Position numbers and translations under genes: made by a program. A stretch of 64,000 nt of DNA from Promethearchaeia archaeon (lineage in GTDB: Archaea > Asgardarchaeota > Lokiarchaeia > Sigyniarchaeales > SOKP01). Where the stretch lies: NCBI GenBank assembly GCA_029856125.1, contig JAHQWJ010000138.1:1-64000 (forward strand), written 5' to 3'. Under the pieces are notes generated by a model. That model was not told the DNA's origin. It saw only the letters and a program-made list of their open reading frames with translations, and ran no database searches. Positions within the stretch are counted from its first letter, which is position 1; each line of letters begins with the position of its first letter. Shown in pieces: positions 46,186 through 51,263 of the stretch.

Positions 46186-46695
46186 TTATTTTTTTGTAGT
46201 AAGATAAGCTATTATACCGTAGATTAATCCATTTACCAAACTCCCAAAGATCACATTCATTAAAGCCGCAGTTTGGTAAAATTCCCCTGCAAGCAATACT
46301 TGATAAGCAAATCCTTGATATAGTATTATAATACTAACAAGCATACATATTATTGCAGATAGGAAAAATCCTGCGAACGCATGAACCCGCTTTTCGCTAA
46401 GTCTTCCAGTTATCACAGCAGCAATTAATGGAGCAATTATAAATCCAAGATTAAGGAAGAAAAAATTCCAACTAATAGGATCAGTCCCGATTGAGTAAGC
46501 TAAAAGATCTACTAAATACCAAATAGCATGGGCAGTTGAGGAGAACAACACGTAGAGAAGATAGGGCACATTTGGTAATATACCTGTTATGAAATTATCA
46601 AAACCATAGCCGATAGCATAGATTATGGTAAAAACTACAGCATTTAAGACTACTAATGCTACGAAACTAACTATAAAAGATTTTCCAAAACTCAT
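46186..46695 (-). CDS. Hypothetical 4-TM membrane protein (paralog A)
   Basis: 169 aa; shares HAIW, APLIAA..GR..EKR.H.F and GSL.NGLI with the neighbouring gene. Confidence 0.78.
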   Translation of the reverse strand: MSFGKSFIVSFVALVVLNAVVFTIIYAIGYGFDNFITGILPNVPYLLYVLFSSTAHAIWYLVDLLAYSIGTDPISWNFFFLNLGFIIAPLIAAVITGRLSEKRVHAFAGFFLSAIICMLVSIIILYQGFAYQVLLAGEFYQTAALMNVIFGSLVNGLIYGIIAYLTTKK

Positions 46696-46946: not shown

Positions 46947-47456
46947 TTATTTTCTTTTTGTTGTAAAGAAAGCTAAAAGTCCAAAAATTAGGCCGTTAAG
47001 GAGACTTCCTCCAACAACAATAAACAACGCACCACTACCGAGAAATTCACTAGTGATAATTATTTGATAAGAAACACTGTTAAATATTAGTATCAATGAA
47101 ACAGTCATGCTGACTAAAGAAGTCAAAAAGACTCCGAAAAACGAATGTATCCTTTTCTCCCCAACTCTTCCGGCAACTATAGCCGCAATCAAAGGAGCAA
47201 CAAGTATTATAAGAATCGAAAATAAGCTAAATAGATTATCATTAACAATTTGGTATGCTATTCTATCTACAGTTAACCAAATCGCATGTCCCATCGAACA
47301 GAAGAGATTATAAATGAGACTTGTCGTAGCTCCTGCTGTAAATATGCTAATTATATCGTCAAATCTACCAAAACTAACATAAAGTATGATTACTAATAAT
47401 AGATTGCAGACCATCAATGTTAGTAGACTAAACAAAAACGCTTTTAGTAAACTCAT
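46947..47456 (-). CDS. Hypothetical 4-TM membrane protein (paralog B)
   Basis: 169 aa; tandem paralog of 46186-46695. Confidence 0.78.
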   Translation of the reverse strand: MSLLKAFLFSLLTLMVCNLLLVIILYVSFGRFDDIISIFTAGATTSLIYNLFCSMGHAIWLTVDRIAYQIVNDNLFSLFSILIILVAPLIAAIVAGRVGEKRIHSFFGVFLTSLVSMTVSLILIFNSVSYQIIITSEFLGSGALFIVVGGSLLNGLIFGLLAFFTTKRK

Positions 47457-47812
47457 ATTTATTATCTTTTCATATTTTTATATACAAATTGATTATTCAT
47501 CAAATGAATTATATTCCTATTTAAACCTTCTCTGATTTTGTTTGAATTAAATTGAGATTTTTCACACATACAAATTTCAATTAATGTTGTCTTTGATAGA
47601 TTAGATCGGATTGAAATTATTCTAACAAAACTAGGCTGTTGACTTTGAATTTTGACTCCTTCAAGTAAATTTATAATTACAGACCTATCTTGTAAAGAAG
47701 CACCGTTTCTAAAGAATAATTACTAAAAAGGCGACTACCGATTATTCATTTTGAGATATGTTAAAGTCTAACGATTCAATACAACAAGAATTTTCAGTAC
47801 AATTGGATATAT

Positions 47813-47843
47813 AAAAAAAAAGAAAAAAAAGTTTTTATTTTTT
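47813..47843 (-). terminator. Oligo(T) terminator downstream of histone copy 1
   Basis: A-run/T-run block about 40-70 nt past the stop; the same block recurs after copy 2. Confidence 0.6.
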
Positions 47844-47883
47844 GCTAAACAATCTGGTTCAAACAGAAAATCGGTTAGATCAA

Positions 47884-48090
47884 TCAAATTAAGTTGATAG
47901 CGATTTTCATATCATTTTGTGTAACCTTCTTACGACCTGAATGTTTTGCTATGTCTAGCGCGCAGCCAGTTAAAGTTTTTGCGTATTCTTCTAAATAGTC
48001 CATTAACTTATCTACTGCGGCTCTACTAACGATTTCGGCTCCCGCTTTTTTCATTAAAGCTCTAAGCGGACTCCATGCGAACGCGGCCAT
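47884..48090 (-). CDS. Archaeal histone (HMf-like), copy 1, uninterrupted, 68 aa
   Basis: Histone fold: P..ALMKKAGAEIVS..A, A...AKHSGRKKV...DM.IA; SD GGAGG upstream. Confidence 0.95.
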   Translation of the reverse strand: MAAFAWSPLRALMKKAGAEIVSRAAVDKLMDYLEEYAKTLTGCALDIAKHSGRKKVTQNDMKIAINLI

Positions 48091-48216
48091 GATTTTATTC
48101 CTCCACTAATTATTTTTGTTTAATTTCCCGCACTTTTTACAAGTTTGGGTTAAATTCTTTAATTTTTAATTTTTTAAAAAAATTTAAAGTATTTAAATTA
48201 AAATTGGTATTATTCC

Positions 48217-48224
48217 TATATAAA
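48217..48224 (-). promoter_or_regulatory. TATA box of histone copy 1
   Basis: TTTATATA on the minus strand, within CCAACACATTTATATAGGA, which is identical in copy 2. Confidence 0.65.
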
Positions 48225-48564
48225 TGTGTTGGTTGATCATAGTTTATCCGAGTAATTTTATCATCCAATTATGGTCGACAAAAAGAATCATTGTTGCTGA
48301 GAAAAAAAAAATTTAATAGCAAAATCAGATCGTAAAAAATGATCAAATGTTGACTTCGGTTGTAAATTTGGATTTGAAGTTGAACTTAAGACCTATTAAT
48401 ATTGTTGAGATCCTTGACGAGTTTTCAGAAAATATTCTTGTTAGTAAAAGATAGAGTAGGCTATAATATGAGAATTCAAATATTCAGTATTTTTGAGCCA
48501 CATATTCTAACCTACTTTTTTATTACTTCTAATCTATAGAAGTTCAAAAAATATTCAAAAAAAA

Positions 48565-48837
48565 TTGTCCATCCTTTTGTATTTTGATTCGTCTATAACT
48601 TCTCTCCCCTCAACGAAGAGGGCGAACTATCGCCTTTTGTTAAACTTCTTAACGAGATTAATTCCAATCCAAAAGTTATTCTATCGAAAGAAAAACTTAC
48701 CAACGTCATTTACTAATGAACTTCTTTCTCTAGATGACAAGGAAAAATTGTCGGATATAGCAGTTAATCAATATATCAACTCATATAAGACAGTTAAGGC
48801 AGATTATCTAGATTATTGTAAGGGAAAAGGTATTTAA
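48565..48837 (+). CDS. Small hypothetical ORF or gene fragment between the histone copies
   Basis: 90-codon ORF with TTG start that ends at the histone terminator block; no family recognised. Confidence 0.35.
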   Translation: MSILLYFDSSITSLPSTKRANYRLLLNFLTRLIPIQKLFYRKKNLPTSFTNELLSLDDKEKLSDIAVNQYINSYKTVKADYLDYCKGKGI

Positions 48838-48866
48838 AAAAAGAAAAAAAAGTATTTTTTTTTTTT
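48836..48866 (-). terminator. Oligo(T) terminator downstream of histone copy 2
   Basis: A-run/T-run block homologous to 47813-47843, positioned past the stop of the spliced frame (48903). Confidence 0.6.
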
Positions 48867-48902
48867 GCTAAACAAACAAGTCCAAACAGATAAATCGATC
48901 AA

Positions 48903-49138
48903 TTAAATTAAGTTGATTGCGATTTTCATATCTGCTTGAGTCTAAAGGCATTCTAGATACTAGAACAGCATACTTTCTTACGACGTGAGTGTTTTGCTAT
49001 ATCTAGCGCGCAACCTGTAAGTTCTTTGGCGTATTCTTCCAAATAATCCATTAACTTATCAACTGCGGCTCGACTAACGATTTCGGCTCCCGCTTTTTTC
49101 ATTAAAGCTCTAAGCGGACTCCATGCGAATGCTGCCAT
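48903..49138 (-). CDS. Archaeal histone, copy 2, split by a 29-nt intron: complement(join(48903..48941,48971..49138)), 68 aa after splicing
   Basis: Exon 1 encodes residues 1-56 (...HSRRKKV) and exon 2 encodes TQADMKIAINLI*. The joined product is collinear with copy 1 (65/68 identical). Confidence 0.88.
48942..48970 (-). other. Candidate bulge-helix-bulge (tRNA-endonuclease-type) intron, TGCTGTTCTAGTATCTAGAATGCCTTTAG
   Basis: Fold: outer helix AG/CU, central helix AAAG/CUUU, 3-nt bulges UA^U and AG^A, inner stem GC(U)GUUCUAG-UAU-CUAGAAUGC. Cuts after the second bulge nucleotide match the insertion boundaries defined by copy 1. Confidence 0.85.
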
Positions 49139-49273
49139 AATTTTTTTAATTTCCTCCACGGATGTATAATTTTGGTTATTTTCCCGCACTTTTTACAAGT
49201 TTGGGTTAAACTCTTTAATTTTTAATTTTTGTTTAAAAATGTAAAGTATTTAATGTTAAATTGGCATTACTCC

Positions 49274-49281
49274 TATATAAA
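49274..49281 (-). promoter_or_regulatory. TATA box of histone copy 2
   Basis: TTTATATA on the minus strand, same context as copy 1. Confidence 0.65.
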
Positions 49282-49580
49282 TGTGTTGGTAGATGATGCG
49301 CATCCGAGTAATTTTATCATCCCATTTTGGTCGACAAAAAAAATTTGAATTTTTATAGCACGATTTTTTTAGTAGTGAATTCCGATCTCCAAAAATGATC
49401 AATTATTGGCATCGATTGGCAATGTTTACCCAAAGTCAAATTAAGTTTCATACTAATCTGGCTAACATCCTTAGCGTAGGAGATTAAAATATTCTTGTTA
49501 ATAAAAAATAGAGTAGAGTATAATATGAGATTTTAAATATTTAATGTTTTAAAGCCTTGTTTCTGATATTATGCTTTATA

Positions 49581-50684: not shown

Positions 50685-51263
50685 ATGTCATTTGAACAAG
50701 AAAAACAACCACATTATATCTTCAAGATATGTCTGCTGGGTCAAGGAGGTGTAGGAAAAACTTGTATAGCGAGAAGGTTATGCTTTGATACGTTCGATGC
50801 AAACACACGATTAACGATAGGGATTGATTTTTACACCTATGACCTCCCGATTATTGTTGACGGAAAGGAAACATATGTCCGCTTATCTCTTTGGGACTTC
50901 GGTGGACAGGAACAGTTCAAGCAAATGTTTAGTTATTATATTCATGGCGCAAACGGAATATTTATGATTTTTAGCTTGTTCAACCTAAATAGCACTCTAA
51001 TTGGTTTGGATTGGTGGTATGAACATCTCATAAAACAGAAGCAAAGCAAAACTCCAAAGTTACTAGTTGGATGTAAAAGTGATTTAACAAAAAAACTGGA
51101 AAAAGTTGACGAGTTAGTTATAGAAAGCTTTAGGAAAAAACATAATAATGTTGATTTTTTTAAAACTTCTGCTAAGAAAAACTATAACATAAGGGAAATT
51201 TTCGTAGAGATGACCAAGAACATCTTGGATACTCATGGTTTTAAATACGATAAACTGCTCTAA
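50685..51263 (+). CDS. Ras-superfamily (Rab-like) small GTPase
   Basis: GQGGVGKT, TIGIDF, WDFGGQEQF, GCKSD, TSAK. Confidence 0.92.
   Translation: MSFEQEKQPHYIFKICLLGQGGVGKTCIARRLCFDTFDANTRLTIGIDFYTYDLPIIVDGKETYVRLSLWDFGGQEQFKQMFSYYIHGANGIFMIFSLFNLNSTLIGLDWWYEHLIKQKQSKTPKLLVGCKSDLTKKLEKVDELVIESFRKKHNNVDFFKTSAKKNYNIREIFVEMTKNILDTHGFKYDKLL

What the first reader, a model, noticed from the sequence alone, without database searches (positions are those of the whole stretch)
48903..49138. Candidate bulge-helix-bulge (tRNA-endonuclease-type) intron inside a histone mRNA
Seen in sequence: relative to the adjacent intact paralog, histone copy 2 has a clean 29-nt insertion between codons V56 and T57 (AAG AAA GTA [TGCTGTTCTAGTATCTAGAATGCCTTTAG] ACT CAA), and the missing C-terminus TQADMKIAINLI* follows intact. 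The transcript folds as outer helix AG/CU, 4-bp central helix AAAG/CUUU, two opposed 3-nt bulges (UAU and AGA) and inner stem GC(U)GUUCUAG-UAU-CUAGAAUGC. Established: this is the hBHBh' substrate of the archaeal splicing endonuclease EndA, which cuts after the second nucleotide of each bulge, with RtcB ligating the ends. Applying that rule (UA^U, AG^A) removes exactly 48970-48942 and restores a 68-aa histone. Structure and paralog alignment therefore give the same two boundaries independently. BHB introns are typical of tRNA and rRNA; the mRNA case I know of is crenarchaeal cbf5. Inference: protein-catalysed mRNA splicing of a chromatin gene in an Asgard-like archaeon, which gene callers would annotate as a truncated or frameshifted histone.
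Basis: partly seen in the sequence, partly recalled or inferred. Interest (0 to 1): 0.96.

Follow-up and report, generated by a model that had tools for sequence, protein, structure and literature searches.

The report
tRNA-type mini-intron in Asgard histone gene
A histone gene of a Loki-type (Asgard) archaeon is broken by a 29-base insert shaped like the introns that archaea cut out of tRNAs; the same genome has at least five more such breaks, one in its only gene for an essential translation factor, so these messages very probably have to be spliced by the tRNA-splicing enzymes, although RNA proof is still missing.

Summary
Observation confirmed. Histone copy 2 (49138-48903, minus strand) carries a 29-nt frame-breaking insert, 48970-48942, that forms a bulge-helix-bulge (BHB); the EndA cut rule restores a 68-aa histone. 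It is real DNA: three other assemblies carry it and two relatives carry variants. Fifteen inserts (29-33 nt, five sites) in Promethearchaeota histone genes, picked by protein and not by structure, all form a BHB at a frame-restoring register (4/4 central pairs in 10, against 1 of 180 neighbouring registers). This genome has five more that I checked against intronless orthologs: two other histones, UvrA, a hydrolase and the single-copy aIF2-gamma, whose P-loop insert is kept in 18 genomes of four genera with compensatory stem changes. An (alpha-beta)2 EndA and RtcB are encoded. Caveats: the paralog alone allows two registers; the BHB is not the minimum-energy fold; the one RNA contig lacking 29 nt is an intronless DNA allele, so splicing is not shown. 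The intron allele differs from that allele only next to the intron, which suggests spread by gene conversion. Published coding-sequence precedent found: cbf5 only. This scan has already noted the class in other genomes and on other pieces of this one.

The parts
48971..49138 (-). Histone copy 2, exon 1 (codons 1-56)
   Evidence: nt 1-162 identical to the intronless allele of G007
48942..48970 (-). 29-nt BHB intron (phase 0, between V56 and T57); contains the premature TAG at 48955-48953
48903..48941 (-). Histone copy 2, exon 2 (codons 57-68 and stop; helix alpha-3)
48973..48976 (-). Central helix H, 5' strand AAAG (exon)
   Evidence: pairs kept in 87.5% of cells over 8 same-site introns
48970..48972 (-). 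5' bulge UAU; predicted cut between 48971 and 48970
   Evidence: sequence plus the established EndA cut rule
48948..48969 (-). Intron hairpin h' (9 pairs, one bulged U, 3-nt loop at 48959-48957)
   Evidence: 4 pairs with changes on both sides among 8 same-site introns
48944..48947 (-). Central helix H, 3' strand CUUU (intron)
48941..48943 (-). 3' bulge AGA; predicted cut between 48942 and 48941
   Evidence: sequence plus the established EndA cut rule
48939..48978 (-). Whole hBHBh' motif including the 2-bp exon-exon helix (48978-48977 with 48940-48939)
   Evidence: the outer helix is weak: G-C pair kept in 8/8, A-U pair in 3/8
49153..49157 (-). GGAGG ribosome-binding site of copy 2 (supports ATG 49138 over the called GTG 49189)
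   Evidence: sequence, shared with copy 1
47884..48090 (-). Intronless tandem paralog, histone copy 1 (68 aa)
   Evidence: covered by an RNA-library contig with no differences (run X3)

Best explanation
[quoted passage not shown] The histone pre-mRNA folds locally into a bulge-helix-bulge; the genome's two-subunit splicing endonuclease EndA cuts after the second base of each bulge and RtcB joins the exons, giving the 68-aa histone. SHOWN: the insert in DNA, the motif geometry, its recurrence and covariation in relatives, exon conservation, the genes for EndA and RtcB. ESTABLISHED elsewhere: the cut rule and BHB splicing of cbf5 mRNA. INFERRED: folding in vivo, cutting, ligation and the protein product. 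The intron is probably a tolerated, patchily distributed element and not a histone-specific switch; it seems to move between alleles together with about 15 nt of flanking exon by gene conversion (inferred).
For: DNA support: identical insert in three other assemblies and variants in G003 and L235. Fifteen inserts in 14 histone genes, chosen by abnormal protein tails, are 29-33 nt at codons 40, 46, 53, 56 and 60; all have 3/4 or 4/4 central pairs at a frame-restoring register (4/4 in 10), against 4/4 in 1 of 180 neighbouring registers and at most 3 of 200 shuffles. The intron strand of the helix changes to match each exon (AAAG/CUUU, GCAG/CUGC, GCUG/CAGU, UCUC/GAGA, UUAG/CUAA, GAAG/CUUU). Same-site alignment: 81.5% of cells paired against 27-53% for slid controls, 4 pairs changed on both sides. 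Spliced exons differ by 15-39 synonymous and 2-7 non-synonymous codons. aIF2-gamma is single-copy here and its profile match starts at the insert; the insert is in 18 of 29 scored loci from four genera, 4/4 pairs in 15, and removal opens about 403 codons; 83.8% paired, 6 pairs changed on both sides. In 425 kb aligned to G007 the only two frame-breaking insertions inside well-supported coding sequence were this one and UvrA, both full BHBs in register. EndA alpha and beta, the alpha most like Aeropyrum EndA with catalytic Tyr, His, Lys and the specificity loop; RtcB.
Against: No spliced junction was seen: the RNA contig that lacks 29 nt reconstructs to an intronless allele also present in DNA. 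The central and outer helices are weakly predicted. Copy 1 is intact, so this copy need not be functional, and its exon 1 is identical to an intronless allele, too recent to test selection on this copy itself. The covariation counts include related sequences, and the register was chosen among 2-5 protein-equivalent ones.
Confidence: 0.88

Rival explanations
1. Copy 2 is a dead or truncated duplicate: the insert is not removed and copy 1 supplies the histone (or a 61-aa alpha-3-less histone is made).
For: Copy 1 is intact and was the copy covered by an RNA contig; the intron allele is recent; no junction reads.
Against: Interrupted histones stay conserved on both sides of the insert; three of six histone genes here are interrupted; the single aIF2-gamma gene has the same kind of insert in its P-loop; read-through tails differ freely among same-site inserts, so the unspliced peptide is not conserved.
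Confidence: 0.05
2. EndA cuts the BHB but the outcome is mainly mRNA decay or partial splicing, so the insert acts as an expression dial tied to tRNA-splicing capacity.
For: Weak central helix; affected genes include chromatin and translation factors; EndA processing of a 5' UTR affects expression of Haloferax HVO_1309 (PMC7714728).
Against: Presence is patchy among close relatives (G007 lacks it in the histones and aIF2-gamma), which fits neutral gain and loss; exact frame restoration is needed only if exons are ligated.
Confidence: 0.04
3. The ribosome gets past the insert by programmed frameshifting or hopping; no RNA cutting.
For: A hairpin and an early stop are features of recoding sites (own knowledge).
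Against: Inserts of 29 and 30 nt occur at the same site in both the histone and aIF2-gamma, so no single shift fits; several contain in-frame stops inside invariant motifs; the codons before and at the end of the insert (GUA, UAG) do not match as hopping needs.
Confidence: 0.02
4. Assembly or sequencing artefact.
For: The one unclassified (probably DNA) run laid shows no depth over the insert (X15); it seems to hold the intronless allele.
Against: Identical insert in three other assemblies and substituted variants in two more.
Confidence: 0.01

Closest known systems
BHB intron in cbf5 (pseudouridine synthase) pre-mRNA of Desulfurococcales and Sulfolobales (Watanabe 2002; Yokobori 2009, PMC2738675)
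   Same: Short intron inside a coding sequence, BHB-like ends, EndA-dependent, breaks a conserved motif, gained and lost across relatives; the host EndA is of the same two-subunit type.
   Different: One gene and one site there; here at least six genes in one genome and five sites in one histone family, lengths tightly 29-33 nt, polymorphic among near-identical alleles, in an Asgard lineage. cbf5 splicing is shown experimentally, this is not.
Non-canonical BHB tRNA introns of Asgard archaea (bioRxiv 10.64898/2026.10.13.758758)
   Same: Same motif, same enzyme, repeated gains, arrival route unknown; this genome also has about 30-nt T-arm tRNA inserts.
   Different: That study covers tRNA genes only (no mention of mRNA, histone or cbf5).
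EndA-processed BHB in the 5' UTR of Haloferax HVO_1309 (PMC7714728)
   Same: EndA acting on an mRNA.
   Different: Non-coding location; the reading frame does not depend on it.
IRE1/RtcB splicing of XBP1 and HAC1 mRNA (PMC13149111)
   Same: Protein-only removal of a short frame-shifting intron with a tRNA ligase.
   Different: Different nuclease and signal (two stem-loops, not a BHB); regulated by ER stress; no homology implied.

Membership tests
Archaeal BHB (EndA/RtcB) intron | 4-bp central helix flanked by two 3-nt bulges on opposite strands | tested here: met
   chance 6/20,000
Archaeal BHB (EndA/RtcB) intron | Intron-side helix h' | tested here: met
   9 pairs; changes on both sides in 4 pairs; core probabilities 0.57-0.80
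Archaeal BHB (EndA/RtcB) intron | Exon-side helix h (strict hBHBh') | tested here: inconclusive
   2 pairs here, 0-2 in relatives; better described as the relaxed HBh'-type with a short h
Archaeal BHB (EndA/RtcB) intron | Cuts after the second base of each bulge restore the uninterrupted RNA | tested here: met
   68-aa product; holds for all 15 histone and 18 aIF2-gamma inserts
Archaeal BHB (EndA/RtcB) intron | Host encodes EndA with catalytic Tyr-His-Lys and RtcB | tested here: met
Archaeal BHB (EndA/RtcB) intron | Spliced RNA and excised intron observed in cells | tested here: inconclusive
   No junction in three RNA-library runs; none was shown to come from an intron-carrying strain
Archaeal BHB (EndA/RtcB) intron | Cleavage by EndA in vitro | not testable with these tools
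   bench assay
cbf5 mRNA intron family | Located in cbf5 at the conserved site | tested here: not met
   host gene is a histone (PF00808): works like the cbf5 intron but is not a member
Group I / group II / homing-endonuclease introns | Ribozyme core of hundreds of bases or an intron-encoded protein | tested here: not met
   29 nt, no ORF
Spliceosomal intron | GU...AG ends and a spliceosome | tested here: not met
   starts UG and ends AG; relatives start with A or U and end mostly AA, AG or AU; spliceosome not searched

The most novel reading that the evidence does not exclude
One family of Loki-type Asgard archaea uses tRNA-type splicing as a routine step of gene expression: roughly ten or more 29-33-nt BHB introns per genome sit in conserved motifs of histones, aIF2-gamma and other genes, and they spread between alleles and paralogs by short gene-conversion tracts without any mobility gene. 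[quoted passage not shown]
Probability: 0.6. Interest if true: 0.88.

Novelty: new variant of a known kind. Interest (0 to 1): 0.75.

Why it matters
Archaeal coding sequences are taken to be intron-free apart from cbf5 (PMC7714728, PMC2738675). If these inserts are spliced, an Asgard lineage makes histones and an essential initiation factor depend on the tRNA-splicing enzymes, which offers a prokaryotic parallel to IRE1/RtcB mRNA splicing and a testable case of intron gain in progress (intron-plus and intron-minus alleles otherwise identical). In practice, public catalogues hold false truncated or extended Asgard histones and split genes (about 20 such histone entries among 120 hits; one was even read with TGA=W), which affects histone-variant surveys and marker-gene phylogenies.

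Tried and rejected
RNA reads: run X9 seemed to show the spliced form (29 nt left out, exon 1 identical to copy 2), but rebuilding the contig from the difference table gave the junction of an intronless allele known from DNA (L171, nearly G007), not the predicted one; rejected as evidence. X3 covered copy 1 only; X2 neither gene; X15 had no depth over the insert. Homology-free genome scans for BHBs were too noisy: no clear length peak, and three of four follow-up candidates (C117, C84, C18) were gene junctions or antisense matches, so I give no genome-wide count beyond six. The search for related loci returned only intronless genes because it keeps the best matches. A single-reference boundary search mis-placed three inserts and was redone with a profile. 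One search used a mis-indexed structure and was redone. The antisense control was uninformative (central pairs often also form). The insert has no second copy in the genome, so no local donor was found. My motif search did not recover the Elf1 intron noted by others. Three single-contig genomes of another family and G007 have uninterrupted aIF2-gamma and no stop inside the listed histone matches. Literature searches found no report of mRNA BHB introns in Asgard archaea; the library lacks most subscription journals. Searches were input errors.

Full report
Observation. On the minus strand the window holds two tandem histone genes: copy 1 at 48090-47884 (68 aa) and copy 2 at 49138-48903. Copy 2 is 29 nt longer; unspliced it stops after 61 aa. 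Of all 29-nt deletions, two restore the best match to copy 1 (66/68 aa): 48970-48942 and 48971-48943. The RNA can form a central helix AAAG/CUUU with 3-nt bulges UAU and AGA, a 9-pair intron stem and a 2-pair exon stem; cutting after the second base of each bulge removes 48970-48942, and no other register within six bases gives even three central pairs. Six of 20,000 random window 29-mers give such a motif at this site. The motif is not the predicted minimum-energy fold (z 0.07; central-helix probability 0.03-0.15), so enzyme binding or low temperature would have to stabilise it (inference).

Organism and DNA support. The nearest named records are Promethearchaeota (Loki-type Asgard) genomes. 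The truncated 61-aa protein is called on three other contigs that carry the identical insert. G003 and L235 carry 29-nt variants with 2-3 substitutions. An artefact is therefore excluded in practice.

Same gene family. From protein hits with abnormal tails and relatives I collected 15 inserts in 14 histone genes. Boundaries were set with a profile of 72 intronless proteins, then tested for a BHB. Lengths are 29-33 nt, at codons 40, 46, 53, 56 and 60; one gene has two. Ten have 4/4 central pairs and five have 3/4, against 4/4 in 1 of 180 neighbouring registers. The intron strand of the helix always matches the local exon, for example GCAG/CUGC and GCUG/CAGU at codon 60. Eight codon-56 inserts (29 or 30 nt) keep 81.5% of pairs (slid controls 27-53%) with four pairs changed on both sides; the sequences are related, so this is not a probability. 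After removal, the genes differ from copy 2 by 15-39 synonymous and 2-7 non-synonymous codons, as expected for working genes.

Same genome. Two more of the six histone genes are interrupted by 30-nt BHB inserts with stops (C8:64406-64435; C82:17995-17966), and the G007 orthologs read as the predicted spliced products. A UvrA-like gene has a 31-nt insert whose ends from alignment to G007 coincide with the BHB cuts (C149:3302-3272). A hydrolase has a 33-nt one, absent from the G011 ortholog (C63:73143-73175). The strongest case is aIF2-gamma (C136:18999-19027): one gene only, split inside the P-loop. The insert is present in 18 of 29 scored loci from four genera (loci ranked by likeness to an intron-carrying query, so not a frequency), 29 or 30 nt long, 4/4 central pairs in 15, 83.8% of cells paired and six pairs changed on both sides. 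A cell cannot initiate translation without this factor (established), so the insert must be removed or bypassed, and mixed lengths at one site rule out a fixed frameshift. In an unbiased 425-kb alignment with G007 the only two frame-breaking insertions within well-supported coding sequence were the histone and UvrA inserts, both full BHBs in register; two in-frame 18-nt indels had none.

Machinery. Two EndA paralogs: one matches Aeropyrum EndA (E 1.7e-33) with the catalytic Tyr, His and Lys and the specificity loop, the other lacks the His, as for an (alpha-beta)2 enzyme, the type reported to cut non-canonical introns (PMC5829648 abstract). RtcB is intact. ARAGORN finds only 17 tRNA genes, 10 with introns, consistent with an intron-rich tRNA set.

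RNA. No raw-read RNA run holds this strain. One metatranscriptome contig matched copy 2 and lacked 29 nt, but its junction is that of an intronless allele found in DNA. Splicing is therefore not shown. That allele is informative in another way: G007 and L171 are identical or nearly identical to copy 2 over nt 1-162 and 181-207 (0-1 differences) yet differ at 5-6 of the 18 nt around the intron, while the intron-carrying genes of G003 and L235 differ at 18-30 of the first 162 nt but at 1 of those 18. The intron and its flank thus look like a patch moved between alleles by gene conversion (inference; no tree test run). The patch also supplies the bulge and exon-helix bases.

Mechanism. Most likely (0.88): local BHB folding, two EndA cuts, RtcB ligation, translation of the 68-aa histone; the excised 29-mer may circularise (inferred from known BHB introns). 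Rivals: dead or truncated duplicate (0.05), cutting used mainly for regulation or decay (0.04), recoding (0.02), artefact (0.01).

Comparison with what is known. It works like the crenarchaeal cbf5 intron but is not a member of that family. Papers state cbf5 as the only confirmed coding-sequence case, with unconfirmed predictions for other genes, plus a 5' UTR substrate in Haloferax. A 2026 census of Asgard introns treats tRNAs only and a 2026 Asgard histone preprint does not mention introns. I class it as a new variant of a known kind: known chemistry, new scale and host. This scan has already recorded the same class in other Asgard histone genes and other genes, and four of the five other inserts of this genome; I had found the histone, aIF2-gamma and UvrA cases before looking, and those notes are not independent support. 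Interest 0.75: surprising and directly testable, held back by the lack of RNA evidence for this intron and by the intact paralog.

Noticed in passing
window 47800-48500 and 48830-49550: The two histone genes are a tandem duplication that includes about 400 nt of upstream sequence and the U-rich 3' end; G007 has the same pair without the intron.
   Followed up: partly
L232:453-688 and 1501-1736: In this contig both tandem copies carry the intron, the second with copy-1 upstream sequence and a copy-2 body. Either gene conversion spread the intron to the paralog or the assembly looped through the 57-nt identical stretch near the contig end.
   Followed up: partly
G000 C136:18999-19027 (L251, L255): 29-nt BHB insert in the P-loop of the single aIF2-gamma gene; shared by 17 other genomes.
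   Followed up: yes
G000 C8:64406-64435 and C82:17966-17995: 30-nt BHB inserts with in-frame stops in two more histone genes, both at the R-K-x-(I/L/V)-T loop, which looks like an insertion hot spot.
   Followed up: yes
G000 C149:3272-3302 and C63:73143-73175: 31-nt BHB insert in a second UvrA-like gene and 33-nt insert in an alpha/beta hydrolase; the latter is shared with G007.
   Followed up: yes
G000 C49 near 3706 and C123 near 5582: 30-nt inserts relative to G007 in what look like tRNA T-arms; same length class as the mRNA introns. ARAGORN finds only 17 tRNA genes in a 99% complete genome.
   Followed up: no
L244:313-366: A TGA inside a histone intron was read as Trp by the gene caller, giving a false 78-aa protein.
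   Followed up: partly
L242:192-324: Histone gene with two BHB inserts (codons 40 and 56).
   Followed up: yes
window 50685-51263 (+): 192-aa small GTPase of Rab-like appearance, typical of Asgard archaea; no search run.
   Followed up: no
window 46186-46695 and 46947-47456 (-): Two tandem paralogous 169-aa membrane proteins directly downstream of the histone pair; family not looked up.
   Followed up: no
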